NCBI GenBank assembly: GCA_043826455.1
Contig: JBDRQD010000067.1
Span: forward strand, 1 to 46,622
Direction of reading: 5' to 3'
Source of the DNA: Candidatus Bathyarchaeota archaeon
GTDB taxonomy: Archaea; Thermoproteota; Bathyarchaeia; TCS64
DNA length: 46,622 nt
Shown here in pieces: positions 15,780 through 35,521 of the stretch (positions are counted from its first letter, which is position 1; every line of letters starts with the position of its first letter). The notes beneath the pieces are model-generated. The model was not told where the DNA came from. It ran no database searches and saw only the letters and a list, made by a program, of their open reading frames with translations. The translations under genes were made by a program, and so were the position numbers.

Positions 15780-15934
15780 TCTCCCTATTGAAGTTCGGAG
15801 GAATAGGTGTGGGAGGAGAAACTAGAATACATGTTTACGTGTAAAATTGGGGAATGTGGGGCAATGCGCATGCAAAGCGACTTTTAGCCTATTTTATAAT
15901 CCTCCAGCCTAATATCATGTTCAAGGTAGTAAGG

Positions 15935-17053
15935 TTGAAGATCACTGACATCAGGACCATAGCCCTCAAGATACCCTTGAAAGAGGGGTCACCTGTCTCC
16001 GCTTACCCTAACCGGAGAAGAGTGCACATACTCGTCGAGGTTTCCACAGACGAGGGCATAACAGGGTACGGGGAGTCCATCCCGTACACCTACGGCTCCG
16101 TGGGCGGCTACATCGAGCAGCAGCTAAAGCCCCTGCTGGTAGGGGAGAACCCTATGCACGTGGAGAGGCTCTGGGACAAGGCCTACAGGGCGAGCTTCGG
16201 CCACGGCATCAGAGGCATCTCGCTGTACGCGTTAAGTGCAGTTGAGGTCGCCCTCTGGGATATCATCGGGAAAGCCAGGAAGCTACCGGTCTACGAGATG
16301 ATCGGCGGCCTCTGCCGAGACAAGGTCAAGGCCTACGCGAGTCTAATGGAGTACCGCAGACCCGAGGAAGTGGGAAAGATATCGGTTCAATGGGTAGAGC
16401 AGGGATACAAAGCAGTAAAGATCCATCAAGGAAGAAGCGACGCAGTGGAGTCCACGAAGGCGGTGAGAGACGCCGTCGGCGACGACGTGGAGATCATGCT
16501 CGACGTGAACGGCGCGTGGACGCCCATGGAGGCGATTAAAAACGCCAAAGCCCTTGAGAGGTACGACCTCACGTGGCTGGAGGAGCCCATCTGGCCCGTA
16601 GACGACTACCCCAGCCTGGCGAGGCTCAGGGAGAAGACAAGCATACCCATCGCCGGGGGCGAGAACGAGCACACACACCACGGGTTCAGGAACCTGATAA
16701 CCCAGAACGCGGTTGACATCGTCCAACCAGACGTGATCATGACAGGCGGCATATCCACATGCAAGAAGATATTCGCCCTCGCAGAGGCCTGGAACCTAGG
16801 CATAGCCACGCACAGCTTCTTCTTCGGGCCCGGCGTCCCCGCGGCGGTACACCTGAGTCTGAGCAACGTGAAGAGTGAGTGGGTAGAGATAAACGCGGTC
16901 CCGCTGGAGGCCTTCTTCATCACCCCGGCGTACAGGCCGGTTAAGGGATACGTCACGGCACCCGACAAGCCCGGGCTGGGCTTCGAGGTGGACTGGGGTG
17001 TAGTGGAGAAGTATGCCGTGAGGGAGTCTCCCGCCGGCTCCCTCTACTATTAA
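15935..17053 (+). CDS. mandelate racemase / muconate lactonizing enzyme family (enolase superfamily)
   Basis: ALWDIIGK, KxH, MLDVN, WLEEP, GENE, QPD, PGLG; likely TTG start at 15935. Confidence 0.92.
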   Translation: MKITDIRTIALKIPLKEGSPVSAYPNRRRVHILVEVSTDEGITGYGESIPYTYGSVGGYIEQQLKPLLVGENPMHVERLWDKAYRASFGHGIRGISLYALSAVEVALWDIIGKARKLPVYEMIGGLCRDKVKAYASLMEYRRPEEVGKISVQWVEQGYKAVKIHQGRSDAVESTKAVRDAVGDDVEIMLDVNGAWTPMEAIKNAKALERYDLTWLEEPIWPVDDYPSLARLREKTSIPIAGGENEHTHHGFRNLITQNAVDIVQPDVIMTGGISTCKKIFALAEAWNLGIATHSFFFGPGVPAAVHLSLSNVKSEWVEINAVPLEAFFITPAYRPVKGYVTAPDKPGLGFEVDWGVVEKYAVRESPAGSLYY

Positions 17054-17147
17054 CTAAACGCTCAGTAAAACAGTCAACAACTTTGAACGGGTGATTTTTT
17101 AGTTTTAAAAAGAAAGCTGAAATACATTGCTAATGGAAGTTCTATCC

Positions 17148-17720
17148 ATGAAACCAAATCGTGTTTTGATCTTAACGGCGAGTCCACGTAACAACGGCAA
17201 CAGCACGATCCTAGCATTGAAAGCCGCTGAAGGAGTCAAAGCCGCAGGCGGCGAAGCGGACGTTGTGCCGATAGGTAAACTGAAGATCGCCCCCTGTAAC
17301 GCGTGTGACTCGTGCAGAACGAAACCGGAGGAGGGTTGCGTAATCAAGGATGATATGCAGCCATTATACAAGAAAATCGAGGACGCACAGGGAGTAATAT
17401 TCGCTACCCCTGTCTACTGGTTCAACGTATCCGCGCAGATGAAACTATTCATCGACCGAACATACGCAGTACACGATGAAGACGGCTACGCGCTCACCGG
17501 GAAAGACGTCGGCGTGATCCTCACCTACGAGGACGAGGACGTTTTCGTTTCAGGCGGGATCAACGCGCTGCGCTCTTTCCAGGACATATGCGCCTATGTC
17601 AAAGCCAATCTCGTGGGAACTGTTCACGGTAGCGCGGGTAAGGCAGGAGATGTCCAAGCCAACGGAAAACTATTACAGAAAGCCTACGATTTAGGCAGAA
17701 AAATTGTAAATCCAAAATAG
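17148..17720 (+). CDS. iron-sulfur flavoprotein / flavodoxin family
   Basis: SPRNNGNS, CNACDSC-x7-C, ATPVYW, QMKLFIDR. Confidence 0.9.
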   Translation: MKPNRVLILTASPRNNGNSTILALKAAEGVKAAGGEADVVPIGKLKIAPCNACDSCRTKPEEGCVIKDDMQPLYKKIEDAQGVIFATPVYWFNVSAQMKLFIDRTYAVHDEDGYALTGKDVGVILTYEDEDVFVSGGINALRSFQDICAYVKANLVGTVHGSAGKAGDVQANGKLLQKAYDLGRKIVNPK

Positions 17721-17779
17721 ATTATTAAAAGAATAATTTCCTTCAAAACATCAAACCACCGTCAAACAAGAACACCCCA

Positions 17780-17897
17780 CGGCGGACACCGCCACCCACC
17801 ACCACCGCCCAGAGGACCCCTAAAAAGCCTCTAAACCAGAAAACAAGCCTGAAAACCGTGAATCGCGGTGGCGGTGATGGGACCCCCCTCCCCCCCC
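17780..17897. repeat. ~120-bp non-coding repeat, copy 1
   Basis: Near-identical to 20203-20320; internal inverted repeat CACCGCCACC (17787-17796) / GGTGGCGGTG (17867-17876); ends in C-runs. Confidence 0.92.
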
Positions 17898-17926
17898 GCG
17901 TGCACGTGCACACAAATGACGAGAAA

Positions 17927-17949
17927 GGTGCGGGAGGAGGGACTCGAAC
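17927..17949 (-). repeat. att-like copy of the tRNA-Leu 3' end
   Basis: Reverse complement GTTCGAGTCCCTCCTCCCGCACC is identical to 29303-29325; palindrome TTTTACTAGTAAAA adjacent at 17954-17967. Confidence 0.9.
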
Positions 17950-18173
17950 ACCTTTTTACTAGTAAAACTTTGCCTGCGTTTGTGTGATGTGAGGATAAGG
18001 TTATGGAGTATTCCTCTATACTGTAGGCTCTGATCCTCTCATACCCGGAAATCTTTAGGAGGATCAATTCGCTGATCCTCAGGCTTAAGCTGAGGCCTCG
18101 CAACGCTCACGCGCGCATGTGAGGAAAAGATTATTGTATTAGAAATTTTTTGGAGAGAATTCTAGGTTCAAAG

Positions 18174-19388
18174 CTACTTGGTAAAAATAGAGGATCTAAG
18201 AGGATCTTTAGAAAGAATTTGGAAAACTACTGCCGCCAAAACCATCATACCCCCCAGAATAACACCTATGAGGCCATAGCCAGACACAAGCAGCGCCCAC
18301 CCACCGACAGTGGCTCCGATAGTTGAACCAAGCATAGAGGCTGCTTGACCAACAGACATCATCGTACCTCTGAACCTGGGGACCTGTTCAAGGGCGAGAA
18401 GGTTGACTGAGGTAACCAACACTCCAGTGAAGAAACGGCCCAGGAACATCACACCCATAGAGATCCAAAGGTCAGGAAGGTTTGAGAAGGATAATATGGG
18501 GAGGCCAGCAGCGAGAGCGGAGAATACCGAGACGGGCTTCCTTCCATACTTGTTGACTAGTCGTCCGCTGGCTAACCCTCCCACCGTGAATAATAGGGCG
18601 CCGGCTAGGGTGATGATGGAGACGAGGCCGGTTGATAGAAGGAATCTCTGCCTGAAGAATGATGCTCCGTAGAGCAGGATTGACTGGTATGAGGCTGTCG
18701 CTAGGGCGTAGCCTACTAGGCAGGCGATGGCGGAGCTGCTTGAGAATACTCCTCTGAAACCTTCAAGGAAGTCTACACTTGAAGTCGTTTGAGGGCTCAC
18801 GCTGCGTGGTAGAGCTGTATGCACGAGTAGGAGTATTGAGAGAAACAACGGGAAAGCATATAGTAGGTAAACCATGCGCCACCCCATGAGGCTTGATACT
18901 GTGCCTATAAGTGGGGCTCCGATGACGTTGGCGAGCGACAGCCCAGCGGTGAGCCAGCTCATGGCGTGGGATCTTCCTTCTGGGGGGAAGCGTTCGCCGA
19001 CGAGCGTGGATGCCATTGGGCTTATGATCGCGTTACCCAGTCCTGACAGTGTGAATATTAGGAGCATTGCTGAGAGGCTTGGGGCTAGATAGGAGCCCAG
19101 GGCGGATATGGTTAGCAGGGCTAAGCCGATCAGCAGCAGCGAGGAGCTTCTGTATTTGACGCTTATAGCTGCGAGGATGAGGGCTCCTACTAAGCCGGCG
19201 AGTGATGAGGCTGTCTGGAGCTGCCCTGCGACGCCGACGGGGCACTGGAAGGTGTCGGCTATGTCTACTAGTAGTAGTCCTATTATTAGTGTGGGGGTGA
19301 TGCTTGCGAACCGGGATAACGCCAGTGATGGGAGTACAAGTCTGCCTATTTTTTGGGTAATTTTGGAGTCTTTTTCAGTGTCGCCCAT
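18174..19388 (-). CDS. MFS transporter
   Basis: About 12 TM segments, GRLVNKYGRKPV motif A-like, GAPLIG...GWR. Confidence 0.9.
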   Translation of the reverse strand: MGDTEKDSKITQKIGRLVLPSLALSRFASITPTLIIGLLLVDIADTFQCPVGVAGQLQTASSLAGLVGALILAAISVKYRSSSLLLIGLALLTISALGSYLAPSLSAMLLIFTLSGLGNAIISPMASTLVGERFPPEGRSHAMSWLTAGLSLANVIGAPLIGTVSSLMGWRMVYLLYAFPLFLSILLLVHTALPRSVSPQTTSSVDFLEGFRGVFSSSSAIACLVGYALATASYQSILLYGASFFRQRFLLSTGLVSIITLAGALLFTVGGLASGRLVNKYGRKPVSVFSALAAGLPILSFSNLPDLWISMGVMFLGRFFTGVLVTSVNLLALEQVPRFRGTMMSVGQAASMLGSTIGATVGGWALLVSGYGLIGVILGGMMVLAAVVFQILSKDPLRSSIFTK

Positions 19389-19627
19389 AGCGGGTCATCA
19401 TCTCCTTATATTCTCTATCCGCGACTGTGGAGATTGAACCAGTAGAAGGGGATATGCGGCATATTACGAATTGAAGCCTCTTCCGCATTTATAGTTTTAG
19501 GCTAAAATAATTTATAGTAGGTAAACCAAGATGTGACCAGGGTTCTGTTCAAATTAAAAGATGTGTGGAGCCCTGGCTCCGAGGTGGGGAGCCATACAAG
19601 TACCACATAGAGAGAAGAGGCGAGAAC

Positions 19628-19915
19628 ATGAAATATATGTTGCACTGGGAGATGTGCCCAGAGGACATGGATAAAGTCATACCTCTCTTCCAGAAGATGG
19701 CTGAGCTGAGAGGCACCAAAGGCTATCCAAAGGCACTTGCACCAGTCTACAACTTCGCAGGACAGACGAGCGGATTCACAATATACGAAGTCGATGACCC
19801 CCAGCAGATAACCAACTTCTACTTCCATTATCATCCCCTCTTGAAGATGACTTGGAAACCCATAGAGGAGACAACAAACACCGTAGCTACATATTTAAAG
19901 CTCAAGAAAAAGTAA
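19628..19915 (+). CDS. DUF3303-like small protein
   Basis: MKYMLHW...GFTIYEVDD...MTWKPI pattern; likely start ATG 19628. Confidence 0.65.
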   Translation: MKYMLHWEMCPEDMDKVIPLFQKMAELRGTKGYPKALAPVYNFAGQTSGFTIYEVDDPQQITNFYFHYHPLLKMTWKPIEETTNTVATYLKLKKK

Positions 19916-20003
19916 GAAACACCATGGAAACCTACTTCCCACCTTTTTCTATAAAATAAATTAAATTATGAAATATGGTGAACTGAGGATGAAATTATGC
20001 CCA

Positions 20004-20112
20004 ATCGAGGGGAGGGACTCGAACCCTCGAAGCCCTCAGACACGGGATCTCCCACCCAAAACACTCGGATCTTAAGTCCCGCCCCTTAGCCAACCTCGGG
20101 TACCCCCCCCCC
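20004..20112 (-). pseudogene. degenerate tRNA-Leu(TAA) copy with intron
   Basis: Nearly identical to 29224-29316 including the intron; acceptor 5' side is a G run, 3' side reads CCCTCGA, no CCA; upstream homologous but TATA lost. Confidence 0.85.
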
Positions 20113-20202
20113 ACGCACAATAAAGCACAGACCAACACATCACACCCTCACCCAGCCCAACCACACAGAAACCCCATGAATTGAGAACCCTATACGAAGA
20201 AC

Positions 20203-20320
20203 CGGCGGACACCGCCACCCACCACCACCGCCTAAGGACCCGTAAAAAGCCTCCGAACCAGAAAACAAGCCGTAAAACCGTGAATCGCGGTGGCGGTGAT
20301 GGGACCCCCCCTCCCCCCCC
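20203..20320. repeat. ~120-bp non-coding repeat, copy 2
   Basis: Direct repeat of 17780-17897; inverted repeat arms at 20210-20219 and 20289-20298. Confidence 0.92.
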
Positions 20321-20396
20321 CCCACGCACACACAGAGAGAAACAAAAACCACAAACAAAACAGAGCCCAAGAAACAGGGCCCCCACAAAATAGCAC

Positions 20397-20834
20397 CTAG
20401 TTAATGATCACGGTGTCCAGCTGAAAGTACCGCTGAGCCAGGAAACGAATCTTCTTAATGTTAGCCCCATTCTTACCAATAGCTATACCCTTATCCTTAG
20501 GATCCACGTTCACCATGGCGATCCTCTTACCCTCCATCCTATCCACCAACCGGATATCCTTCACCTTGGCCGGCTTCAACGCGTTCTTAATAAACTTCTC
20601 AGGCTCCGCCATGTACTCGTAGATCTCCACCTGCTTGTTGGTCATGGCGCGGAACCGCTTGATCTTCTCGCCGCCCTTGCCCACGGCGAGGCCCACCTCG
20701 CCCTTCTTGACGGTGAAGATGATGGTGTCCTCCTCCTCGTCGATGATACAGTCCACTATAGTGGCCCCCGTCATGTTCTGCAGGAGCTGGATATACTTCA
20801 TCTCAGTCTCCGTGATCTTGATGTTGTTAAGCAT
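20397..20834 (-). CDS. nusA: archaeal NusA (KH domains)
   Basis: GLAVGKGG and GIAIGKNGANI KH loops; follows rpl30e. Confidence 0.95.
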   Translation of the reverse strand: MLNNIKITETEMKYIQLLQNMTGATIVDCIIDEEEDTIIFTVKKGEVGLAVGKGGEKIKRFRAMTNKQVEIYEYMAEPEKFIKNALKPAKVKDIRLVDRMEGKRIAMVNVDPKDKGIAIGKNGANIKKIRFLAQRYFQLDTVIIN

Positions 20835-20835
20835 T

Positions 20836-21138
20836 CTACTCTTTCACCAGGTCAAGTATCCGGCTGTCACCGGGATCGTTTATCACGAGGGCTGAGACAG
20901 GGTAGGGTTTTCCGCACAGCACCCCCAGGTCTACGCTGTCCTTTGCGTGCGTCAGCACGGGTATCTCGGCGAGGCGGCCGTAGGTCGCTATGGCCTCGGC
21001 CTTCTCGGTTGGGCAGTTGGAGCTGAGGATGGCCATCTTGGCCCTGCCTCGCCTCATCTCCCTCACCGCCTCCTTGGATCCAAGCTGGACCTTACCGGTG
21101 GAGAGAGCGAGTCTCAGCTCATGTTCTACGCTACTCAT
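20836..21138 (-). CDS. rpl30e: 50S ribosomal protein L30e
   Basis: TGKVQLG, SSNCP, LGVLCGKPYPVS, DPGDS. Confidence 0.95.
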   Translation of the reverse strand: MSSVEHELRLALSTGKVQLGSKEAVREMRRGRAKMAILSSNCPTEKAEAIATYGRLAEIPVLTHAKDSVDLGVLCGKPYPVSALVINDPGDSRILDLVKE

Positions 21139-24100
21139 CGCGTCTGTCTCCTTGGTTCATGAACAGCTCGACGCTTCCTGTCCCCAGGGGCATCGACTGT
21201 CCGACAATGATGTTCTCGATCACCCCTTTAAGGGGATCGATCTCACCCTTTATGGCTGCGTCCACCAGGTGCTGTATGGTCAGCTCGAAGGCGGCCCTGG
21301 CCAGGACGCTGCTCTTCTCGCCGCTGATGCCGTGGCGGCCGATCTGCTGAACCTCCCCGGTCTTGGTCATGATGTCCGCCACCAGCATGACGTGGCGAAT
21401 GTCCACGTCCAGGCCCTGCTCCGTGAGAACCGCGTGGGCCTCCCTGATGAGGGCGTTCCTGGCTGCCTCGACGCCGAATATCTCAGCGATCTCGTGGATG
21501 TTGTTGGTCGTTGTCTTGGTGGGGTCCACTCCGTCGATCCTGAGCACTCCCTCCAGGTTGCTTCCGTCGGTCCTGATGACCCACTCTCCGTCCTCGACCG
21601 TTGTGAGGACGCGCTTGATCTCGGGTATTCCCTTGATGCGGGCCTCGGTGACGTTTTTGATGATGGGCTCGGGGTCCCTGGTCTTATCCTCCTCCAGGCT
21701 CACAAGGTAGCTGTGGTCGCCCTCCTGTGTGAACTTGTAGGGCATGGCCTTATCCACGTCCGCGGCTGAGACGCCGAGGGTCTCCATCCTCTCGGGGTCT
21801 AGGGTGATGTGGACGGCCTCCTCCCGTAGGTCCACGTTGATGGCGTCTATTATGTCGTCGATTGTGGTGTATGTGAGCTTCTGGGCTATCTCCCTGGCCT
21901 TCCTCTCGCTCTTGTTGTACTTGTCGGTGAGGTGGATGTTCATGACGGGCGTGCTCGGGCTCTTCCTGGCGTCCACGATCTCTATGAGCCGCGGAAGCCC
22001 CAGTGTGACGTTCAGCTCGGCTACACCTGCGTAGTGGAAGGTTCTGAGGGTCATCTGGGTGCCGGGCTCGCCTATGCTCTGGGCGGCCACTATGCCCACG
22101 GCCTCCCCGGGCTCCACCAGGCTGTAGTCGTAGTTCTTTAGGACGCTGTCTACGACGTCCCGGACGCTCTTCTCAGTGAGGCCGGCCTGCTTTATCTGGC
22201 GCCTCATCTCCTCCTTCAGGAGCTGAGGTATGTCCTCGGTGATGCCGTCGATCTGCTCGTCGATGAACTTCTCCTTGGCCGCCTTACCCTGCTCCTGGGT
22301 GATGCTGGTCCTGTCGGTGAGCTGGGCCACGTTGACTGCCACGCCGTGGTCGCTCTTGGCCGGGTCCACGCCGTCCTCGCCGTACATGAACTGGACGATG
22401 TCGCCCATGCTGTTCCTGACGGTGCCGTCGTACTCGACCCGGAGGTGCTCCAGGGCGTTGATGAGGCGGCGCTGCATGTAGCCGCTCTGCTGGGTGCGGA
22501 CGGCTGTGTCTACCAGGCCCTCCCGGCCGCCCATGGCGTGGAAGAAGAATTCCAGGGGCGTCAGGCCGTCCCTGTAGCAGTTGTATACGAAGCCTCTTGC
22601 GGCTGGCGCCGCGTCACCTTCCTTGAAGTGGGGGAGGGTCCTGTTCTCGTAGCCCCTCATGATGCGCTTGCCACGGATGCTCTGCTGGCCTACGCTTCCC
22701 ATCATCTGGCCTATGTTGAGGCTGCTGCCGCGTGCGCCGGTCCTGGTCATGATGATGCCGCTGTTCTCTATGGGGAGGCCCTCCTGGACGGTCTCGCCAG
22801 CCCGGTCACGGGCCTTGGCCAACTCGTTCATGACCTTGATCTCGAAGCTCTCCTGGAGCGTCTGCCCGGGCAGCCTCTCCAGGGCACCCGTCTCGTACTC
22901 CTCGGTGAGCTTCTGGACGTTCTTCTCCATCTGGCGCATGACCTTGTTGATCTCCTTCTGCTCCCGGTCCCCCAGGTTCAGCTCGTCGTAGCTGTAGGTG
23001 AAGCCGCGGAGGGTGAGGAACCCGTTGATGAGGCGGCTGATGCCATTGAGGAAATCATGGGCCATGTCTGTGCCGTAGTCCTTGATGATCCTGTGGAAGA
23101 TGGTGTCTGGCCGCTCTGCGCCGATGCTGTTCTTGTCGATGACGCCTGTCCTGAGCTGCCCGTTCTGGATGATGACGTAAGCGTCGTACTGGCACTTCTC
23201 GCGGCTGCACTCGGGGCAGTGGACGCATATGTTGGCCCTGGTGACGAAGCTGAAGTCCCGGGGCAGGAAGAGGCTGAACACCGTCTTGCCGCTCCACATG
23301 GGCTGGGGCTTCATGGCGGTAGGCTTGGGGATGTCCCCCGTGTAGCCCGTGTAGGCTATGAGCTTCCCCACCTCGTCGGCTGTGAGCATGGTTCCGCCGC
23401 GGGTCAGGAGGTAGGCGCCGCTGATGAAGTCCTTGGTGGCTCCGATGATGGGGGCCCCGTACCTGGGGCTCAGAATCTGGTCCTGGACCTGCATGAGCAT
23501 CCTGGCCTCGGTCTGGGCCTCCTTGCTCTGGGGTATGTGGAGGTTCATCTCGTCGCCGTCGAAGTCCGCGTTGTAGGGCGGGCAGACAGTGAGGTGCATC
23601 CTGAAGGTCTTGTAGGGGAGCACCTTGACGCGGTGCGCCATGATGCTCATCCTGTGCAGCGACGGCTGTCTGTTGAACAGGGCTATGTCGCCGTCCTTCA
23701 GGTGCCTCTCGATGATGAAGCCCGGCTCCAGGGTTTCGCCTATCATGGTGCGGTCCTGGACGAACTCCAGCCTGATGCGCTTCTGGTCGGGCCTGATGAT
23801 GTACAGGGCCCCGGGGTGCTTGTAGGGTCCGTTGAGGACGAGCCGCTTCATCTCGTCGATGTTGCGCTCCGTGACCACGTCCGGCACCGTGAGCTTGGTG
23901 GCTATGTGGACGGGCACGCCCACCTGGTTGATGTCTATGTTGGGGTCGGGGCTGATGACGGTGCGCGCAGAGTAGTCCACACGTTTGCCGCTCAGGTTGC
24001 CCCTGAACCGGCCCTCCTTGCCCTTGAGCCTCTGGGCCAGGCTCTTGAGGGTCCTGCCGCTGCGGTGCCTGGCGGGGGGTATGCCGCTCACCTCGTTGTT

Positions 24101-24976
24101 GAAGTAGGTGGTGACGTGGTACTGGAGGAGCTCCGAGAGGTCCTCTATGATGAGGGTGGGCGCGCCGGCGTCGATGTTCTCCCTGAGCCTCTGGTTGATC
24201 CTGATGATGTCCACCAGCTTGTGGGTGAGGTCGTCCTCGGCCCTGATGCCGCTCTCCAAGATGATGCTGGGCCGCACGTCCACGGGGGGCACAGGCAGCA
24301 CCTGCAGCACCATCCACTCGGGCCTGGCGGCCCCCGGCTCGAAGTCCAGGAGCCTCAGGTCATCGTCGGGTATCCTCTCGAACCACTCTCTGATCATGTT
24401 GGGGGTGAGGCGTCTGGTGACGTCCTCCTGGACCTCCTCGTCCTCGATGTCGAAGAACTCCTCCTTCTCGATCTCCAGGAACGTAGTGGGCTTGTTGAAC
24501 TTGACCACGGTCTGCACCATGCCGCAGTAGGGGCACTCCTTGTGGCGCTTGTACTTCTTGGCCTGCTTCATGATCTCGGCGGAGGTCTCGTCGCTCACCT
24601 TTCCGAACATCTCCAGGTCGTTGCGGCGCTGCTCTCTGAGCCTCTCCTTGGTCTCCTCGTCCAGGAGGATGCTTCCGCAGCCCCTGCACGTGGAGCTCAG
24701 GACCTTATAGATCTGCTTGGCGAACTCCACGTGGACCACCGGGACGGCCAGCTCTATGTGGCCGAAGTGGCCGGGGCAGTTGATGGCTATGTTACCGCAT
24801 GTGCGGCACCTCTGCCTGGGCTCTAGGGTCCCCAAGCGCTGGTCCATGAGGCCGCCCGCTATGGGGGCTCCGTCCTCGTCGTAGGTGTCGCTGGTCCCTA
24901 TCTCCACGACGCTGAGGCGTCTCACCTCGTCGGGGGAAAGGAGGCCGAACTGGATGGCGTCGATTACCTTACTCAT
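21131..24976 (-). CDS. rpoA: RNA polymerase largest subunit, fused A'+A'' (Rpo1)
   Basis: NADFDGD active site, CPGHFGH, GGREGLVDTA, then continuous A'' motifs GEPGTQMT, TLGLPRL, RHVML, RAAFE. Confidence 0.98.
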   Translation of the reverse strand: MSKVIDAIQFGLLSPDEVRRLSVVEIGTSDTYDEDGAPIAGGLMDQRLGTLEPRQRCRTCGNIAINCPGHFGHIELAVPVVHVEFAKQIYKVLSSTCRGCGSILLDEETKERLREQRRNDLEMFGKVSDETSAEIMKQAKKYKRHKECPYCGMVQTVVKFNKPTTFLEIEKEEFFDIEDEEVQEDVTRRLTPNMIREWFERIPDDDLRLLDFEPGAARPEWMVLQVLPVPPVDVRPSIILESGIRAEDDLTHKLVDIIRINQRLRENIDAGAPTLIIEDLSELLQYHVTTYFNNEVSGIPPARHRSGRTLKSLAQRLKGKEGRFRGNLSGKRVDYSARTVISPDPNIDINQVGVPVHIATKLTVPDVVTERNIDEMKRLVLNGPYKHPGALYIIRPDQKRIRLEFVQDRTMIGETLEPGFIIERHLKDGDIALFNRQPSLHRMSIMAHRVKVLPYKTFRMHLTVCPPYNADFDGDEMNLHIPQSKEAQTEARMLMQVQDQILSPRYGAPIIGATKDFISGAYLLTRGGTMLTADEVGKLIAYTGYTGDIPKPTAMKPQPMWSGKTVFSLFLPRDFSFVTRANICVHCPECSREKCQYDAYVIIQNGQLRTGVIDKNSIGAERPDTIFHRIIKDYGTDMAHDFLNGISRLINGFLTLRGFTYSYDELNLGDREQKEINKVMRQMEKNVQKLTEEYETGALERLPGQTLQESFEIKVMNELAKARDRAGETVQEGLPIENSGIIMTRTGARGSSLNIGQMMGSVGQQSIRGKRIMRGYENRTLPHFKEGDAAPAARGFVYNCYRDGLTPLEFFFHAMGGREGLVDTAVRTQQSGYMQRRLINALEHLRVEYDGTVRNSMGDIVQFMYGEDGVDPAKSDHGVAVNVAQLTDRTSITQEQGKAAKEKFIDEQIDGITEDIPQLLKEEMRRQIKQAGLTEKSVRDVVDSVLKNYDYSLVEPGEAVGIVAAQSIGEPGTQMTLRTFHYAGVAELNVTLGLPRLIEIVDARKSPSTPVMNIHLTDKYNKSERKAREIAQKLTYTTIDDIIDAINVDLREEAVHITLDPERMETLGVSAADVDKAMPYKFTQEGDHSYLVSLEEDKTRDPEPIIKNVTEARIKGIPEIKRVLTTVEDGEWVIRTDGSNLEGVLRIDGVDPTKTTTNNIHEIAEIFGVEAARNALIREAHAVLTEQGLDVDIRHVMLVADIMTKTGEVQQIGRHGISGEKSSVLARAAFELTIQHLVDAAIKGEIDPLKGVIENIIVGQSMPLGTGSVELFMNQGDRRDE

Positions 24977-24977
24977 A

Positions 24978-27900
24978 CTAGTCCGCCTCCTTGGTGAGCT
25001 TGAGGCTCGGGCTCATACACAGGCTCTGCATCTCCTGAAGCAGCAGCTTGAAGGCGTAGCTTATGGTCACGGGCTCTATGTCGCCCTTGCCCTCGCAGGT
25101 GGGGCACATGTACTTCCTCTGCCTTATATCGTAGAAGCCCTGCCTGCCGCACTTCTCGCATACGTAGATGGTGTAGGCGTCGCTCTCCTCTAGGAGCCTG
25201 TCCTTCAAGAGCATGGCGGCTCCGTGGCCGACGAGGCAGTCGCGCTCCATCTCCCCGAACCTGAGGCCTCCGCCCCTGGCGCGGCCTTCGGTGGGCTGTC
25301 TTGTGAGCATCTGGACCTGGCCGCGGGCCCTGGCGTGGATCTTGTCCACCACCATGTGGTGGAGCTTCTGGTAGAAGGCCACGCCCACGAATATCTCGGC
25401 CTCGAACATGTGGCCGCTCATGCCGTCGTACATCATCTCCCGGCCCCCGGGCTGGAAGCCCAGGTCCCTGAGTATCTCCTCTAGGGCCTTGGGGTCCTCG
25501 TTGGCGAAGGGTGTGCCGTCCACTATCTCCCCTCTCAGGGCGGCCGCCTTGCCGGCGATGGCCTCTATGAACTGGCCCACGGTCATGCGGCTGGGGTAGG
25601 CGTGGGGGTTCATGACGATGTCCGGGATGGTGCCGCTGGTGGTGAAGGGCATGTCCTCCGGAGCCACCAGCATCCCGATGACGCCCTTCTGGCCGTGCCT
25701 GGAGACGAACTTGTCCCCCAGCTCGGGGACCCTGTGGCTCCGGACCTTGACCTTGATCAGTTGGCTGCCCTCGATGTCCTTGGTGATGAACACCTGGTCC
25801 ACGACGCCCACCTCTGTGGGGCGGACGCCTATGCTGGTGTCTCGCAGCTGGGGGCCCCTGATCTCTATTCCGCGGTACTCCTCCATGAACCTGGGTGGGC
25901 TGGTCTTGCCTATGAGGACGTCGCCGCCCTTGACCTCCGCCTCTGTGGCTATGAGGCCGTCGGATTCAAGTTGCCTGTAGGCGTCTGCGCCGTGGTATCC
26001 GCGGATGCCTGCCTCCGGGATGGTGAGCCTGTCCTTGGCTCCGCCCAGGTACTGCTTGCACTCGGCCTTGTAGATCCTGTAAAAGCTGCTGTGGCCGAGG
26101 CCCCGCTGCACAGCGCCCTTGTTGAATATGATGGCGTCCTCCATGTTGTAGCCTATGCTGCTGAGGATGGCTATTATGAAGTTCTGGCCGGCTGGCCTGT
26201 CGTTGTAGGCGATGACCTCCATGGGCTTGGTGGCCACCAGGGGCTTCTGGGGGTAGTGGAGCAGGTGGCCGCGGGTGTCGGTCCTGTCGCCGTGGTTGAG
26301 GGCGTAGATGCCTGGGGCTTGCTTGGCCATGGCGGCCTGGTACGTGTTCCTGGGGCTCTGGTTGTGCTCGGCGTAGGGGATGATGCCTGCGCCGACGCCT
26401 AGGATGCAGTAGGAGCATATCTCCTGGTGGGTGTGCTCCTCCGTCAGCTCCTCGGCTTTGATGCCTATGTAGGCGTTCTCCTCCTCGTCGCTGTCCATGT
26501 ACTCCATGATGCCCTCGCGGATGAGGTCGCTCCAGGTCCACCTGTCCTGCTTTATGTTGCGGATGTGCCGCTGCTTGAGGAGGGGCTTGCCGTCCTCCAC
26601 CACTACGAGGGGGCGCCTTATGCGGCCCTCGTCGCAGTTGACGTATATCTCGTTGTAGGTGTTATAGTAGACTATGTTGGCTTCGCCGCTGATCTCGCCC
26701 TTGCGCCGCATCTCCCTGAAGGTCTTCACCAGCACCTGCGGTGACGTGGTGTAGCCTAGGAGGTAGCCCTCCACGAAGATCTTGCTGCCCTCGTGGCGTA
26801 GCTGCTCGTCGGCGTCCTTGGCCCGTGTGACGCCCATGAACTCTAGGGTGCGCTTCACCTTCTCGGCGTCGGTTCCGATGCTAACACTGCTCATGAGGGC
26901 CAGGTTCTTGACCAGGCCACAGTTGGCTCCCTCGGGGGTCTCGTTGGGGCACAGCCTGCCCCAGTGGGTGCTGTGGAGGTCACGGGCCTCGAAGTTGGGC
27001 TGGCTCCTGCTCAGGGGGCTCTGGAGCCTGCGGAGGTGAGAAAGGGTTGAGAGGGTGTTGGTCCGGTCGAGGAGCTGGGTCATTCCGACGCGGCCCCTGC
27101 GCCAGTTGCCGGTGGCCAGGGCGTGTTGGATGCGGCTGGTGATGATGCCAGGTCTGACGGCCGCGGATATGAGGACGCCCTTGCGCCTGGTGCTCATGCG
27201 CCTGAACTGGTACCGCATGTCGCGGTAGAGGCTCCAGAAGGCGGACCTGAACAGCTCGGCCAGTAAGGGCCCCGCCAGCTTGATGCGCTTGTTGCGGAGG
27301 TGGTCCTTGTCGTCCTCCTGCCTCTGCCCCAGTTTGAGCTCTATGATCCTTGAGGCCATCTCGCCCAGGAATATGGCCTTGTCGAGGCGCTCCTCGGGCT
27401 CGCGGCCTATGTGGGGCAGCAGGTTCCTGTCCAGGATTGTCTCGGCGCGCTTGACTCTAAACTCCTTGACTTGGCCGAAGGCGACGCGGTTGCCTATGTA
27501 GAGGATGGCGTCCTCCACGCTCTGGACGCTGCTGGCCTCCCTGAAGCTGGGCTCCATCTCGTCGAGTATCTCTGCGTCCAGGCTCACCATGTCCGCCACC
27601 TGCCTGTCGGTCTCGACGCCCAGGGCCCTCATGAGGACCACGAAGGGGACGGGGACCGGTACGCCGGGGATGGTGACGCTCATCTCCCCTTTGGTCTTGA
27701 GGCTCATCTCTATGCGGGCGCGGAAGCCCACGGTGGTGCTGAACACCTTGCCCCTGTACACGGGCTTGGCTCCGCGGTCGTCGGTCTCCACCAGGACCCT
27801 GTTGGGGGCCAAGTCCTCGAGACTGACGATGACGCGCTCGGAGCCGTTGACTATGAAGTAGCCTCCCACCTCATCCGGGTCCTCCCCCAGCTTCACCAGC

Positions 27901-28307
27901 TCGTCTTTGGTGTGGCGGCTGAGGAGGCAGAGGTTGGACTTGACCATGATGGGGATGTCGCCTATGTTGACCCGCTCGTAGGTCTCCCGGCCCTCGTCGT
28001 CCAGCTCTATCTCTAGGTAGAGGGGGGCGCTGTAGGTGAGGTTGCGTATGCGGGCTTCCCGGGGGTAGACCTCCCGGACGGTGCCGTCCACCTCCACGAC
28101 TCGGGGCTCACCTATCTCTATGGCGCCGAACTTTATGTTGTAGGTGTGGTTAGGGACCTCGATCTGGATGCCCCCTATCTCGTCTATTATCTGTTGCAGC
28201 GTGTTCCTGGTGAAGTCGTTATACGAGTCCAGGTGCTGCTTGACGAGCCCCTCCTCTTGGAAGAAGGACTTCATCAAATCCCAGTGGTCTTGGTCTGTGA
28301 GAAGCAA
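24978..28307 (-). CDS. rpoB: RNA polymerase subunit B, unsplit (Rpo2)
   Basis: GGYFIVNGSE, ETPEGANCGL, GDKFVSRHGQKG, GGLRFGEMERD, C-terminal Zn finger. Confidence 0.98.
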   Translation of the reverse strand: MLLTDQDHWDLMKSFFQEEGLVKQHLDSYNDFTRNTLQQIIDEIGGIQIEVPNHTYNIKFGAIEIGEPRVVEVDGTVREVYPREARIRNLTYSAPLYLEIELDDEGRETYERVNIGDIPIMVKSNLCLLSRHTKDELVKLGEDPDEVGGYFIVNGSERVIVSLEDLAPNRVLVETDDRGAKPVYRGKVFSTTVGFRARIEMSLKTKGEMSVTIPGVPVPVPFVVLMRALGVETDRQVADMVSLDAEILDEMEPSFREASSVQSVEDAILYIGNRVAFGQVKEFRVKRAETILDRNLLPHIGREPEERLDKAIFLGEMASRIIELKLGQRQEDDKDHLRNKRIKLAGPLLAELFRSAFWSLYRDMRYQFRRMSTRRKGVLISAAVRPGIITSRIQHALATGNWRRGRVGMTQLLDRTNTLSTLSHLRRLQSPLSRSQPNFEARDLHSTHWGRLCPNETPEGANCGLVKNLALMSSVSIGTDAEKVKRTLEFMGVTRAKDADEQLRHEGSKIFVEGYLLGYTTSPQVLVKTFREMRRKGEISGEANIVYYNTYNEIYVNCDEGRIRRPLVVVEDGKPLLKQRHIRNIKQDRWTWSDLIREGIMEYMDSDEEENAYIGIKAEELTEEHTHQEICSYCILGVGAGIIPYAEHNQSPRNTYQAAMAKQAPGIYALNHGDRTDTRGHLLHYPQKPLVATKPMEVIAYNDRPAGQNFIIAILSSIGYNMEDAIIFNKGAVQRGLGHSSFYRIYKAECKQYLGGAKDRLTIPEAGIRGYHGADAYRQLESDGLIATEAEVKGGDVLIGKTSPPRFMEEYRGIEIRGPQLRDTSIGVRPTEVGVVDQVFITKDIEGSQLIKVKVRSHRVPELGDKFVSRHGQKGVIGMLVAPEDMPFTTSGTIPDIVMNPHAYPSRMTVGQFIEAIAGKAAALRGEIVDGTPFANEDPKALEEILRDLGFQPGGREMMYDGMSGHMFEAEIFVGVAFYQKLHHMVVDKIHARARGQVQMLTRQPTEGRARGGGLRFGEMERDCLVGHGAAMLLKDRLLEESDAYTIYVCEKCGRQGFYDIRQRKYMCPTCEGKGDIEPVTISYAFKLLLQEMQSLCMSPSLKLTKEAD

Positions 28308-28653
28308 ACTAAATCATCCTTTGAGAGTGAATATGCGTAGGGTCGGGGCGGTTCAGGGAGCTGGGGAGAGGATCATGTTGTCTCATTTACCCGTTTTTCA
28401 CCTTGCCGAGAAACCTTCCTGACCCTAACGAGGCTATACGTTAGGACAACTACTTCCTAATAAATGTTACTCGGTGCGGAGCCTGTTCCATCTTTCTCTA
28501 GGCGATACAAGCTTTTTTAAGGCTCCTTTCAGGGTTCGGGAGCACACCCATTTTCACGTGGGAGGCCCTTCAAAAAATACAAACTTTTATAGGTGGACTC
28601 TGTATTTCGATAAGAGCCCAACAGATCCACGGAGCGGCAACAGATTGGCAGAA

Positions 28654-28872
28654 ATGATCGAGAAAGTGCTTGAACGGAGCGTCGGTAAGACGGTGCTCAT
28701 TAAGGTGCGGGGCGGAAGGACCCTCAGGGGCACCCTGGAGGGCTTCGACCAGCACGTTAACCTCTACATGAGTGACGCGGAGGAGGTCAGCGACATGGAG
28801 AACGTCCGTAGCATCGGTAACATAGTCCTCCGCGGCGACAACGTTATAATGATTAGCCCGCCGCCGGAGTAG
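28654..28872 (+). CDS. Sm-like protein (SmAP/Lsm)
   Basis: Sm1 GTLEGFDQHVNL and Sm2 IVLRGDNV; start ATG 28654 or TTG 28645; directly upstream of rpl37e. Confidence 0.95.
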   Translation: MIEKVLERSVGKTVLIKVRGGRTLRGTLEGFDQHVNLYMSDAEEVSDMENVRSIGNIVLRGDNVIMISPPPE

Positions 28873-28879
28873 ACAGGCT

Positions 28880-29062
28880 GTGCCCACGAAACATGCGCTT
28901 CATACAGGTAAGAGGATTCACATCCAGTGCAGGCGTTGCGGTAGGCGCGCGTACCATGTCACCAAGAGGACCTGCGCGGCCTGCGGCTACGGAAGCACCG
29001 CCCGTCTCAAGAGCAGCTCTGTGAGGCGTAAGGACATACAGAGGACCAGGCGTATCGTCTAG
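28880..29062 (+). CDS. rpl37e: 50S ribosomal protein L37e
   Basis: HIQCRRCGRRAYH...CAACGYG. Confidence 0.93.
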   Translation: MPTKHALHTGKRIHIQCRRCGRRAYHVTKRTCAACGYGSTARLKSSSVRRKDIQRTRRIV

Positions 29063-29183
29063 GCCCACGGGTTTCATATCCTTTTAGCTTTTCAGTTGCT
29101 CGTGTTTGTGTTTGATGTCTTAGGTGAGTCTATCACTGTGGCTGTACCTTTGGTGAAATTTTTTTGGTGTTGGTTGGGTAAGG

Positions 29184-29191
29184 TTATAAAT
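29184..29191 (+). promoter_or_regulatory. TATA box of tRNA-Leu
   Basis: TTATAAAT about 26-33 nt upstream of the tRNA 5' end. Confidence 0.65.
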
Positions 29192-29216
29192 TGTTGGCTT
29201 GTCCCTATTTGTGCGT

Positions 29217-29326
29217 GCGGGAGTACCCGAGGTTGGCCTAAGGGGCGGGACTTAAGATCCGAGTGCTTTGGGTGGGAGATCCCGTGTCTGAGGACTTCGA
29301 GGGTTCGAGTCCCTCCTCCCGCACCA
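29217..29326 (+). tRNA. tRNA-Leu(TAA) with 22-nt canonical intron (29257-29278), CCA encoded
   Basis: GCGGGAG...CTCCCGC-A-CCA; anticodon arm CGGGA-CTTAAG|A-TCCCG; long variable arm; intron forms a bulge-helix-bulge (CTTA/TGGG central helix). Confidence 0.96.
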
Positions 29327-29370
29327 AATTACTAGTAAAGTATTTAAAGTGAACCGCGTATAAACGCCTA

Positions 29371-29889
29371 ATGGTCAGGAAGAAGGAGCTGAAGCAGCGA
29401 GCCATCTACGTCTATCCACCCGCGGAGATAGCCCAGCGCTGGAAGGACCAGGCGGAGCGCTCCGGGGCCAGCATCAGCAGGTTCGTTATAGAGCATGTCG
29501 AGAACTCGCTGAACGCCGAGACAGACCCAGATTATCAGCCTAGAACCGGCCTCATCGAGGAGAACAAGAAGCTTGCCGAGGCTCTAAAGGAGAAGGACAG
29601 GTATAACCACCACCTGGAGCTCCTCGTGGATAAGCAGGAGGAGGATCTACGAGTCTACAGGTCCAGGATCTTCCCCGACACCGGTAACGAGAAGGTACGG
29701 GACTACGATAAGCGAATAGTGCAGATACTCAAGGAGACTGGACCACACACCAGCGACTCACTTCTCCTAAGACTGGGTGTAGGGCCAGACGACATGGCGG
29801 CTGTTAAGGCGGTCTCGGCGCAGCTAGAGGTCCTCCAGGTCTTTGGCCTGGTGAGGCAGACAAGCAGAGGGTGGACGTGGGCAGAGTGA
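29371..29889 (+). CDS. putative DNA-binding protein (N-terminal RHH-like, coiled coil, C-terminal wHTH-like)
   Basis: RAIYVYPP...WKDQAERSGASISRFVIEHV; C-terminal L..L..FGLV....RGW; stop overlaps integrase start. Confidence 0.75.
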   Translation: MVRKKELKQRAIYVYPPAEIAQRWKDQAERSGASISRFVIEHVENSLNAETDPDYQPRTGLIEENKKLAEALKEKDRYNHHLELLVDKQEEDLRVYRSRIFPDTGNEKVRDYDKRIVQILKETGPHTSDSLLLRLGVGPDDMAAVKAVSAQLEVLQVFGLVRQTSRGWTWAE

Positions 29890-30845
29890 CGGAGACAGCC
29901 ATGGTGAATGAGATGGTTCACGTTGATCTGGACCTGATACGGAGCTTCGTGGACGACTGCCGGCTCCGCGGCTACAGCCCCGAGACCATACGGAGCCACC
30001 GGTCAAACATCCGGACAGCGGCCAGGTTTCTCAAGAAAAGGGCCATAGGCTTCACCGATTTAGATAAGGAAGGATTAAGGCAACTCCTAGATTACCTGAA
30101 AAACGATCGTAAAGTGAGCACCAAGACCCTTGACATGTACTTCACGGCACTGTCAAGCTTCTATGAGTACCTCGTTTTCGAGGAGATCATAGAGAACAAC
30201 CCGATTCCAAGCTTCAGAAAGAGGTACCTGACCAAGTATAAAAACTACAAGCCGGGAGCACAGAGGAAGCTTCTCTCGGTGGAGGATATGAGCCGGCTCA
30301 TCAACGGAACCCTGGAGATCAGGGACCGGGCCCTCATGGCTGTGCTGGCCAAGACAGGTGTCCGGCGCGGGGAACTCATCTCCATGGACGTGGACGACAT
30401 CGACTGGGAGAACGGCAGGGTCAAGCTGAAGGGTAAGAACAAGCGCAGCAACCTCTACGTGTACTTCGACGACGAGACGGCCATCCTGCTGGGGAGGTGG
30501 CTGAGGGTCCGGGAGGGCTACGCTGCGCCGGGTGAGAGGGCCCTCTTCGTTGGGGATAAGGGTAAGCGTATTGGCAGGAACATGGTGTACAGGGTGGTGA
30601 CGGGCCACGCTGAGAGGCTGGGGCTCCATGATCCGAGTAGCCCACGGCTTGAGGACCATTTTAGCCCCCACTGCTTCCGCCACTGGTTCACCACCCACCT
30701 GCGCCGGAATGGCCTGAGCAGGGAGTTCATCAAGGAGCTCAGAGGAGACAGCCGCGGTGAGGCCATCGACATCTATGACCACATCGACCACGACGAGCTA
30801 CGCAAAGCATACCTGGCAGCTATACCAAGACTCGGAGTAACCTAG
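29886..30845 (+). CDS. tyrosine recombinase/integrase (XerC/D-like)
   Basis: N-terminal SAM-like domain; KTGVRRGEL, KNKR, PHCFRHWF, ELRGD, IYDH. Confidence 0.95.
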   Translation: MTETAMVNEMVHVDLDLIRSFVDDCRLRGYSPETIRSHRSNIRTAARFLKKRAIGFTDLDKEGLRQLLDYLKNDRKVSTKTLDMYFTALSSFYEYLVFEEIIENNPIPSFRKRYLTKYKNYKPGAQRKLLSVEDMSRLINGTLEIRDRALMAVLAKTGVRRGELISMDVDDIDWENGRVKLKGKNKRSNLYVYFDDETAILLGRWLRVREGYAAPGERALFVGDKGKRIGRNMVYRVVTGHAERLGLHDPSSPRLEDHFSPHCFRHWFTTHLRRNGLSREFIKELRGDSRGEAIDIYDHIDHDELRKAYLAAIPRLGVT

Positions 30846-31673: not shown

Positions 31674-31687
31674 CTACGACACGCTTC

Positions 31688-31773
31688 ATCTGCATTATGG
31701 TGCATATTACTTGCATAATATTGTTTAAATAGTTTGCTGGTATATGGAACGGTAACTGCGTTATAATGCAGAT
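31688..31773. promoter_or_regulatory. divergent promoter/operator region
   Basis: Perfect inverted repeat ATCTGCATTAT (31688-31698) / ATAATGCAGAT (31763-31773); TGCAT at 31691, 31701, 31712; central TTTAAATA. Confidence 0.6.
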
Positions 31774-31783
31774 ATGGGGTGTT

Positions 31784-32002
31784 TTGGTGAAGAGGAGTGG
31801 GGTTCAAAGGGCGTTGTACGTCCCGGGGAAGCTGGACGAGCAGGTGGAGAGGACCCGTGAGAGGCTTGGTATGAGCCGGAACGCGTTCTACAGGTACGCG
31901 GCCACCAGGCTCCTCCAGGAGCTGTCGGTCCTCTCGGAGGCTGTCCACGGCGATAGCTCAAGCGTCGAGGCTTGTGGAGGAGGAGACGTTGACTGTCTGT
32001 GA
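31784..32002 (+). CDS. ribbon-helix-helix (CopG-like) protein
   Basis: RALYVPGKLDEQVERTRERLGMSRNAFYRYA. Confidence 0.75.
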   Translation: MVKRSGVQRALYVPGKLDEQVERTRERLGMSRNAFYRYAATRLLQELSVLSEAVHGDSSSVEACGGGDVDCL

Positions 32003-32255: not shown

Positions 32256-32397
32256 AAGCAGAGAAAAATGGGGGAGGCACTCCACACCGTAAAAACCATA
32301 AAGAACAGGGCAGCCTCGCCTCTGCGCGCGCTCCACCACGAGGACGGCACTATGACTACCCCGGAGAGGCATTGAAGAAACTGGAGGTGGCGCCTGC

Positions 32398-35510: not shown

Positions 35511-35521
35511 GAGGTGATGTG

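What the first reader, a model, noticed from the sequence alone, without database searches (positions are those of the whole stretch)
17927..29338. att partner of tRNA-Leu lies on the wrong side and inverted: element probably split by an inversion spanning the RNAP cluster
Seen: 23 bp identical to the intact tRNA-Leu 3' end sit 11 kb upstream on the opposite strand. They match the intact gene (CCCTCCTCCCGC), not the nearby pseudo-copy (CCCTCCCCTCGA). No direct-repeat attR was seen to the right, and nusA lacks its usual rps12-rps7 neighbours. Inference: one inversion, with breakpoints just after nusA and inside the element, gives exactly this order and would lock the element in the chromosome. 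Alternatives are a 2-kb mini-island in a duplicated tRNA, or misassembly.
Basis: partly seen in the sequence, partly recalled or inferred. Interest (0 to 1): 0.78.

Follow-up and report, generated by a model that had tools for sequence, protein, structure and literature searches.

The report
RNA polymerase block flipped between tRNAs
In this archaeal assembly the RNA-polymerase gene block lies reversed between its usual neighbours and is bracketed by two opposite-facing copies of a leucine tRNA gene; it was likely flipped by recombination at a mobile element's attachment sites, a kind of event already known in other archaea.

Summary
The 23-bp inverted match is real, and relatives support an inversion, but not the proposed one. 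nusA lacks rps12 in 15 of 15 informative same-genus relatives, so that clue is void. Synteny carries the case: the flavodoxin/M20 block left of 17927 normally follows tRNA-Leu (G042 shows the empty site), and the genes that normally follow nusA lie on contig C25 behind a second palindrome-plus-core att site. That site is a candidate direct attR, so the element is probably not split or locked. The window is a whole contig ending in an IS, and the C67–C25 link is not shown. tRNA-Leu was duplicated; the spare copy carries a 2-kb integrase-less cassette. Best reading (0.42): the element's integrase recombined the two 23-bp cores, flipping 17950–29302. Close rival (0.30): homologous crossover in the tRNA copies or flanking repeats. 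A second assembly leaves the nusA–repeat junction (20299–20360) unbridged. The scan had noted the att cassettes and the repeat on other pieces of this genome; I found no note of this inversion. This is a new instance of a known kind.

The parts
14532..15779 (+). M20 peptidase, part of block X (normally downstream of tRNA-Leu(TAA))
   Evidence: Pfam; orthologue (73-76%) downstream of the tRNA in G014, G018, G033
15805..15846 (-). Decayed palindrome+core att relic, same orientation as the 17927 site
   Evidence: a more decayed form is present in G008 and G013
15854..17053 (+). Mandelate racemase/muconate lactonising enzyme family gene, block X
   Evidence: Pfam; 90% orthologue downstream of the tRNA in G002
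17127..17720 (+). Flavodoxin/FMN reductase, block X; first gene after tRNA-Leu in the empty site of G042
   Evidence: Pfam
17772..17914 (-). Dispersed ~140-bp repeat, copy b (41 copies found in the genome)
   Evidence: a repeat lies at the same place in G042 and beside flavodoxin in G013
17927..17949 (-). 23-bp att core identical to the tRNA-Leu(TAA) 3' end (attR type); likely left breakpoint
17955..17966 (.). 12-bp palindrome of the attR-type arm
   Evidence: same layout at direct attR sites in G057, G077, G017
17983..18007 (-). Boundary motif M, right end of the cassette
   Evidence: 22 hits with up to 6 mismatches; 0, 1, 0 for three shuffles
18174..19388 (-). MFS transporter, cassette cargo
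   Evidence: Pfam
19565..19915 (+). DUF3303 protein, cassette cargo
   Evidence: Pfam
19976..20003 (-). M-like motif directly after the pseudo-tRNA 3' end; left end of the cassette
   Evidence: seen by eye (not among the 22 pattern hits); same junction at C61:37198
20006..20157 (-). Degenerate duplicate of tRNA-Leu(TAA) with intron and 45 bp of promoter region
   Evidence: 86% over 148 bp; 13/45 differences upstream, 3/92 in the body, damaged acceptor ends; not called by ARAGORN or Rfam as a standard tRNA
20203..20345 (-). Dispersed repeat, copy a, between nusA and the pseudo-tRNA; alternative left breakpoint
   Evidence: its poly-C end is not bridged by the second assembly
20397..20834 (-). 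nusA
   Evidence: Pfam
20836..21138 (-). Ribosomal protein L30e
   Evidence: Pfam L7Ae/L30e family; name from operon context
21131..24976 (-). RNA polymerase largest subunit, fused A'A''
   Evidence: Pfam
24978..28307 (-). RNA polymerase subunit B
   Evidence: Pfam
28666..28872 (+). Lsm protein
   Evidence: Pfam
28880..29062 (+). Ribosomal protein L37e
   Evidence: Pfam
29217..29327 (+). Intact intron-containing tRNA-Leu(TAA); 29303-29325 is the attL core and likely right breakpoint
29329..29338 (.). 10-bp palindrome of the attL-type arm
   Evidence: conserved after tRNA 3' ends in relatives and proviral contigs
29371..29889 (+). 172-aa gene conserved just before this integrase family; function not shown
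   Evidence: 50-53% identical partners in G057, G073, G077; no Pfam family above cut-off
29871..30845 (+). Intact tyrosine integrase with N-terminal SAM-like domain
   Evidence: Pfam; NCBIfam XerA-like below cut-off; R, HxxR and Y motifs conserved in homologues
30852..46622 (.). Rest of the integrated DNA: second integrase-like gene, RHS/YD protein and orphan tips, IS1182/IS5-like transposase; runs off the contig in an IS end

Best explanation
The RNA-polymerase block lies reversed between its usual neighbours and is bracketed by two opposite-facing tRNA-Leu copies, and it was likely flipped by the element's integrase recombining the two 23-bp cores. Shown: the anatomy, the swapped neighbours, and the att layout of this integrase family. 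Inferred steps: (1) tRNA-Leu with its promoter and 3' repeat was duplicated into the interval between nusA and its convergent neighbour Y1, facing away from the original. (2) The spare copy collected a small cassette and one or more integrase elements in tandem, leaving an internal palindrome-core-palindrome (attP-like) junction and an outer attR next to Y1 (now on C25). (3) The attP-like junction recombined with the original, opposite-facing tRNA (attB), which inverts 17950-29302 instead of integrating anything. The products are the attL at 29303 and the attR-type site at 17949. The element right of 29326 would still be bounded by direct sites (29303 and C25:12822), so it is probably not locked; the cassette and the dead tRNA were carried away from it.
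For: Block X follows tRNA-Leu(TAA) in 5 of 22 relatives whose downstream DNA was examined, many of them cut short by contig ends (G042, G002, G014, G018, G033); in G042 it follows with only the repeat between. Y1 lies convergent after nusA in 10 of the 23 same-genus relatives (of 31 searched) that have it, and other C25 genes do so in G017 and G033. G014, G018 and G033 show both anchors in the unflipped order. Exactly two exact palindrome+TAA-core sites exist in this genome. Direct attL (core+palindrome) and attR (palindrome+core) pairs bound complete elements in G057, G077 and G017, and a palindrome-core-palindrome junction exists in G013. The contig's left end is accounted for by a tRNA-Asn attR on C36, which leaves the right end for C25. 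The site at 17949 is pristine and has the lowest upstream G+T of 34 repeat copies (0.39; 24 non-tRNA copies 0.56-0.82), as expected if it was a working tRNA end until recently. The C25 site has lost one base, and its repeat is the only one of 41 own copies with the older motif seen after the tRNA in G042. Precedent: an archaeal integrase inverts DNA between inverted tRNA-Leu sites in vitro (PMC5495485, passages).
Against: The final DNA arrangement is the same under the homologous-recombination rival, so the crossover position is inferred only from which sites look young. The pseudo-tRNA body differs by only 3/92, so a pristine core is weak evidence. The arm upstream of repeat b may be G+T-poor by nature, and the C25 arm scores almost as low (0.44). 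The cassette has ordinary ends of its own (M motif left, palindrome+core right), so the 17927 site needs no special origin. The C67-C25 link is not shown: the two contigs end in different IS types, and C25's left part has its own integrase and replication-like genes. No relative with the proposed intermediate (spare tRNA after nusA, unflipped) was found. Block X is mobile in the two closest relatives: flavodoxin is not next to tRNA-Leu(TAA) in G008 or G013. The nusA-repeat junction is not bridged by the second assembly. The bin is 7.2% contaminated.
Confidence: 0.42

Rival explanations
1. Same inversion, different crossover. After tRNA-Leu was duplicated, the block flipped by homologous recombination between the two then-identical tRNA units or between inverted copies of the dispersed repeat (breakpoints near 20203-20345 and in the C25 repeat). 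Each tRNA copy then took its own island, and 17927-17949 is simply the attR of the 2-kb cassette in the spare tRNA.
For: Gives the same final order with the same number of steps. Repeats flank tRNA-Leu upstream in G008/G013 and downstream in G042, so unequal crossover could duplicate it. The C25 repeat looks chimeric: its 5' half is closest to the G042 tRNA-side copy (rank 1 of 72), its 3' half to own-genome copies. The cassette ends match the layout at C61. Strains in two other studies carry the same att-repeat junction on the Y1 side with different upstream DNA, which suits an old arrangement with a working tRNA as the hot spot.
Against: It leaves the pristine site attached to the dead tRNA and the damaged site attached to the live one. 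The DNA just upstream of repeat b shows no G+T drift, while the spare copy's promoter has 13/45 differences. The spacer between repeat a and the pseudo-tRNA is not significantly similar to the G008/G013 spacer (z 0.8-1.2). G008 and G013 have no repeat between nusA and Y1.
Confidence: 0.3
2. No single local inversion. Block X moved next to nusA and block Y moved behind an att site by separate rearrangements or by replacement with DNA from a relative, and C25 is not adjacent to the window's right end.
For: No overlap or shared IS links the two contig ends. tRNA-Leu sites shuffle cargo in this genus: flavodoxin sits near tRNA-Leu(CAA) in G013.
Against: It needs two events where one explains both swaps. 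The C25 core matches only tRNA-Leu(TAA). The left contig end is already paired with C36.
Confidence: 0.11
3. Misassembly. The contig is wrongly joined at the poly-C end of repeat a (about 20300-20325), so block X, the cassette and the pseudo-tRNA are not next to nusA.
For: Logan contigs of the probable source run stop at 20298 and resume at 20361; the pieces on either side of repeat b overlap by only 23 letters. Several contigs of the bin end in this repeat.
Against: Contig ends overlap by 141 bases, while repeat a shares no 45-mer with any other copy. The att-repeat-Y1 junction is bridged in the same run and seen in two other studies, so nusA and Y1 are separated regardless. The tRNA duplicate itself lies inside one Logan contig.
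Confidence: 0.08
4. One reading: one inversion with breakpoints just after nusA and inside the element, leaving it split and locked.
For: It predicts correctly that the 17927 site and block X end up on the nusA side.
Against: Y1 is preceded by an att site plus repeat, not by raw element DNA. The left segment holds a whole tRNA duplicate and host-type cargo, and its proteins had no hit in the integrase-bearing elements of relatives. The rps12 clue is genus-wide.
Confidence: 0.07

Closest known systems
Integrase-driven inversions in Thermococcales, Int-pTN3 (PMC5495485, passages seen; PMC8371274 section 35 read)
   Same: Inversion breakpoints in opposite-facing tRNA genes, a tRNA-Leu-targeting tyrosine integrase at hand, and inversion between inverted tRNA-Leu sites shown in vitro for that enzyme.
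   Different: Int-pTN3 groups with the SSV-type integrases, which carry the att site inside the gene (PMC8371274 passages; PMC7253208 abstract start). Here the gene is intact, has a SAM-like N-terminal domain and lies 545 bp after the core. The inverted piece is 9-11 kb, and one tRNA is a lineage-specific duplicate.
TKV2/TKV3 inversion of Thermococcus kodakarensis (PMC8371274, passages and section 35)
   Same: Opposite-facing integration sites lead to a chromosomal inversion.
   Different: There the crossover is homologous recombination between two related elements. Here the cassette on the left showed no similarity to the element on the right (element DNA against the genome); the shared DNA is the tRNA, the core and the repeat.
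tRNA-integrated genomic islands and tandem arrays as defined by Islander (PMC4383910, passages)
   Same: Regenerated tRNA, integrase beside it, displaced 3' fragments, several fragments in a row.
   Different: The in-window fragment is upstream and inverted, the configuration that Islander rejects and uses to estimate false positives. Here such a fragment is real and marks an inversion.

Membership tests
tRNA-integrated tyrosine-integrase island (Islander definition) | Tyrosine integrase gene within the island | tested here: met
   29871-30845, PF00589 E 3e-28; motifs conserved in homologues
tRNA-integrated tyrosine-integrase island (Islander definition) | Regenerated intact tRNA at one end | tested here: met
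   tRNA-Leu(TAA) 29217-29327
tRNA-integrated tyrosine-integrase island (Islander definition) | Displaced 3' fragment downstream, same orientation, same replicon | tested here: inconclusive
   Candidate on C25:12822, but the contig link is not shown; the in-window fragment is upstream and inverted
Integrase-catalysed chromosomal inversion (Int-pTN3 type) | Synteny breakpoints at opposite-facing tRNA genes or att sites | tested here: met
   Neighbour swap around 17927-20345 and the tRNA/C25 att site; exact crossover not resolved
Integrase-catalysed chromosomal inversion (Int-pTN3 type) | SSV/pTN3-type integrase with att inside the gene | tested here: not met
   Intact gene downstream of the att site, SAM-like N-terminus, best NCBIfam match XerA-like
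Integrase-catalysed chromosomal inversion (Int-pTN3 type) | At least ~104 bp of identical inverted sequence for the non-att route | tested here: not met
   Longest identical stretch between the tRNA copies is now 28 bp; it may have been longer at the time
Integrase-catalysed chromosomal inversion (Int-pTN3 type) | Enzyme inverts DNA between inverted sites | not testable with these tools
   Needs an in vitro or heterologous assay
Inversion by homologous recombination between paralogous elements (TKV2/TKV3 type) | Two related elements in opposite orientation at the breakpoints | tested here: not met
   Element DNA 29330-38800 has no hit in the 2-kb cassette
Tandem accretion array at a tRNA | Several co-oriented tRNA 3' fragments separating cargo units | tested here: met
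   17927-17949 and 15805-15846 here; arrays in G013 and G017
Tandem accretion array at a tRNA | Integrase-less units mobilised in trans | not testable with these tools
   The cassette has no integrase; mobilisation not observable in contigs

The most novel reading that the evidence does not exclude
The 11.4-kb segment carrying the RNA-polymerase operon is a live invertible switch. The attL at 29303 and the attR-type site at 17949 are compatible, inverted and intact, so the element's excision reaction would flip the operon back and move the integrase genes away from the working tRNA promoter. Inversion would then compete with excision and switch the element on or off.
Probability: 0.12. Interest if true: 0.72.

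Novelty: new member of a known kind. Interest (0 to 1): 0.36.

Why it matters
It shows mobile-element att sites rearranging a core transcription operon in an uncultured archaeal lineage, outside the Thermococcales where the papers read here describe it. It is also a practical warning: island finders discard inverted tRNA fragments as false positives, yet here one marks a real breakpoint. The sites are short and defined, so the integrase model can be tested with one PCR set and one in vitro assay. As it stands it is a single-genome rearrangement with no shown effect on the cell.

Tried and rejected
rps12-rps7 as a marker of the breakpoint: rejected; among 30 nusA loci rps12 was found in 2, both class-level relatives, and it is divergent from tuf in 12 of 18 same-genus loci. 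Linking the window's right end to C25 through one shared IS: failed; the right end enters an IS1182/IS5-like copy shared with C69 and C34, while C25 begins in another IS, ISH3-like by my recall of the neighbouring protein. C28:1717 as the direct partner: less likely; it has 3 mismatches and the C28 flank links to C75 DNA in G013. Homology of the repeat-to-tRNA spacer with G008/G013: not significant. Looking for the element's own attP: the exact palindrome+core pattern gave 0 hits in viral and genome collections and 0 of 70 family genomes; five viral contigs with the integrase, three of them with tRNA and partner gene, did not show a far end. Flipped-back junctions: none listed in the probable source run, but contigs drop rare variants; the opposite-strand joint 17969/29332 in run X2 has only 37 letters on one side and was set aside. 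Lower depth over the cassette (11-13 against 16-17) was not interpreted. The small gene after nusA in G008 was not found in this genome with that query. Folding of the repeat and arms gave z from -2.2 to -0.05. Runs with small shares (X2-X5) were used only for the laid junctions. Paper searches listed nothing on this locus.
Full report
OBSERVATION. The window is the whole contig C67 of a 2.95-Mb, 81-contig archaeal bin (97.7% complete, 7.2% contaminated). The name Bathyarchaeia comes from earlier scan notes on this genome, not from a test here. The 23-nt pair 17927-17949 / 29303-29325 is 100% complementary, about 2e-5 expected by chance. It equals the 3' end of the intact intron-bearing tRNA-Leu(TAA) at 29217-29327. 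A degenerate duplicate of that gene, with 45 bp of promoter, lies at 20006-20157 on the minus strand (86% over 148 bp). Its intron is closer to the own intact copy than to G008/G013, so the duplicate likely arose in this lineage.

ATT ANATOMY. A palindrome lies after the core at 29329 and before the core at 17956. The layout core+palindrome, 172-aa gene, integrase follows a tRNA-Leu in G057, G073 and G077 (3 of 5 relatives with this integrase among 70 searched; the other two loci are cut or partial). Direct palindrome+core sites close elements 35.8, 18.8 and 3.0 kb further on in G057, G077 and G017. So 29303 is an attL and 17949 is an attR-type site. The same module occurs at tRNAs in three of five viral contigs. 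Exactly two exact palindrome+TAA-core sites exist in this genome: the one in the window and C25:12805-12843.

THE rps12 CLUE IS VOID. Of 18 same-genus relatives with nusA, 15 had enough downstream DNA, and none has rps12 there; three loci were cut by contig ends. In this genome rps12 is on C75, divergent from tuf, as in 12 of 18 same-genus rps12 loci.

SYNTENY SHOWS A SWAP. In G042 the order is Lsm, L37e, tRNA-Leu, repeat, then flavodoxin facing back, with no island. That is the DNA found beyond the 17927 core (265 of 380 aligned columns identical). Genes of this block X follow the tRNA in 5 of 22 downstream stretches examined (G042, G002, G014, G018, G033). Many of the other stretches are short; in several long ones (G005, G011, G037, G041) no orthologue was seen. 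The gene Y1 at C25:13013-13459, 170 bp after the C25 att site, lies convergent after nusA in 10 of the 23 same-genus relatives that have it (31 searched). In the other 13 it is on another contig, is only a distant paralogue, or was not placed. Other C25 genes follow nusA in G017 and G033. G014 has M20, tRNA, RNA-polymerase block and Y1 on one contig in the unflipped order; G018 and G033 show the same across a contig break. Here X is on the nusA side and Y is behind a tRNA-Leu att site. One local inversion explains both. I put the inversion itself at about 0.85. Against: in the two closest relatives flavodoxin is not next to tRNA-Leu(TAA), although in G013 the rest of X lies behind a palindrome-core-palindrome site in the expected orientation.

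IS THE ELEMENT SPLIT? Probably not. The window ends in an IS end shared with C69 and C34, so the missing direct attR can be an assembly break. The tRNA-Asn element at the window's left end is a control: its attR is on C36, followed by the DNA that follows tRNA-Asn in G013. That leaves the right end to pair with C25. The link is not shown. C25 begins in a different IS, and its left 12.8 kb has its own integrase and a paralogue of a window gene in mirror orientation, so at least two elements in tandem, or a further contig, lie between.

ASSEMBLY CHECK. Logan contigs of the probable source run cover 14500-17881, 17859-19406, 19386-20298 and 20361-33500. They bridge repeat b's poly-C to the att site and cassette, and nusA through the tRNA into the integrase. 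They do not bridge 20299-20360, and this run is not independent support. The C25 att-repeat-Y1 junction is bridged in that run; a contig of run X3 covers att, repeat and Y1 (617 bases, 28 differences) and one of run X2 covers att and repeat, both with different upstream DNA. Contig ends overlap by 141 bases, and repeat a shares no 45-mer with another copy, which makes a misjoin unlikely but not impossible.

MECHANISM. Every model needs the tRNA duplication. After it, the crossover can lie at the 23-bp cores (integrase), in the tRNA copies, or in the repeats, and the end state is the same. I commit to the cores (0.42). The 17949 site looks as if it was a working tRNA end until recently: core and palindrome are perfect, and upstream G+T is the lowest of 34 repeat copies scored (7 of 41 were dropped as too near a contig end). 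The C25 site has lost a base and carries the only old-type repeat of 41. The drift test came from an earlier scan note, and another note disputes that the repeat causes the drift. The evidence is soft: the pseudo-tRNA body differs by only 3/92, the arm may be G+T-poor by nature, and the cassette has ordinary ends of its own. The homologous route therefore stays close (0.30). That an attP-like site and an inverted attB give an inversion follows from standard tyrosine-recombinase topology (PMC8371274, passages).

COMPARISON. It works like the inversions at tRNA genes in Thermococcales (PMC5495485, passages; PMC8371274, section 35). It is not a member of the pTN3/SSV integrase family by gene layout, and it is not a TKV2/TKV3-type crossover between related elements. 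Islander rejects inverted tRNA fragments as false positives (PMC4383910, passages); this one is genuine. Five paper searches (listings only) showed nothing on this locus. No supplements were consulted. Earlier scan notes cover the att cassettes and the repeat on other pieces of this genome; sequence and word look-ups returned nothing on this inversion.

VERDICT. Observation confirmed; interpretation partly supported. A real but local rearrangement of a known kind, with the crossover site and the link to C25 still open. Interest 0.36. The boldest reading not excluded, a reversible switch carrying the RNA-polymerase operon, gets 0.12.

Noticed in passing
window 17772-17914 and 20203-20345; 41 copies genome-wide: A ~140-bp G-run/hairpin repeat. 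Eight copies directly follow a tRNA 3' end, flanks are G+T-rich on one strand, and copy types differ between G000 and G008/G013/G042 even at the same position, which suggests conversion among copies.
   Followed up: partly
window 17983-18007 and 19976-20003; C61:37198; arrays on C75, C33, C24; C25:13576: A second boundary motif (22 hits against 0-1 in shuffles) follows tRNA 3' fragments and precedes small genes; it may be a recombination arm or a protein-binding site.
   Followed up: partly
window 906-2225 and C36:77420-88794: A second integrated element at tRNA-Asn, with an intact 400-aa integrase; its attR is on C36. The genome has a second, different tRNA-Asn(GTT) gene on C59.
   Followed up: partly
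window 36385-45072: A 2089-aa RHS/YD-repeat protein followed by shorter RHS-core fragments with low-GC neighbours, like a polymorphic toxin locus with spare tips.
   Followed up: no
L261 (G037), L263 (G039), L265 (G033), just after tRNA-Leu(TAA): Related sequences that read by eye like an integrase N-terminal region start within about 30 bases of the tRNA end, perhaps a second element family with att inside the gene.
   Followed up: no
window 29871-30845, C-terminal part: All six integrase homologues aligned have RGD where the usual motif (recalled as LGH) has a catalytic His/Trp.
   Followed up: no
L019-L023, L025, L027 (order-level relatives): nusA is followed by convergent rps10 and tuf, so the nusA-rps12-rps7-tuf cluster was already rearranged early in this order.
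   Followed up: no
L142 (G018:C1) 6558 and 13255: Two apparently complete copies of another tRNA-Leu gene 6.7 kb apart in direct orientation, so whole-tRNA duplication occurs elsewhere in the genus.
   Followed up: no
C28:1699-1736 and 7380-7421, C30:11680-11720, C31:36757-36795, C80:6460-6500, C69:11902-11942: Further palindrome+core sites matching other tRNA-Leu 3' ends to varying degrees.
   Followed up: partly
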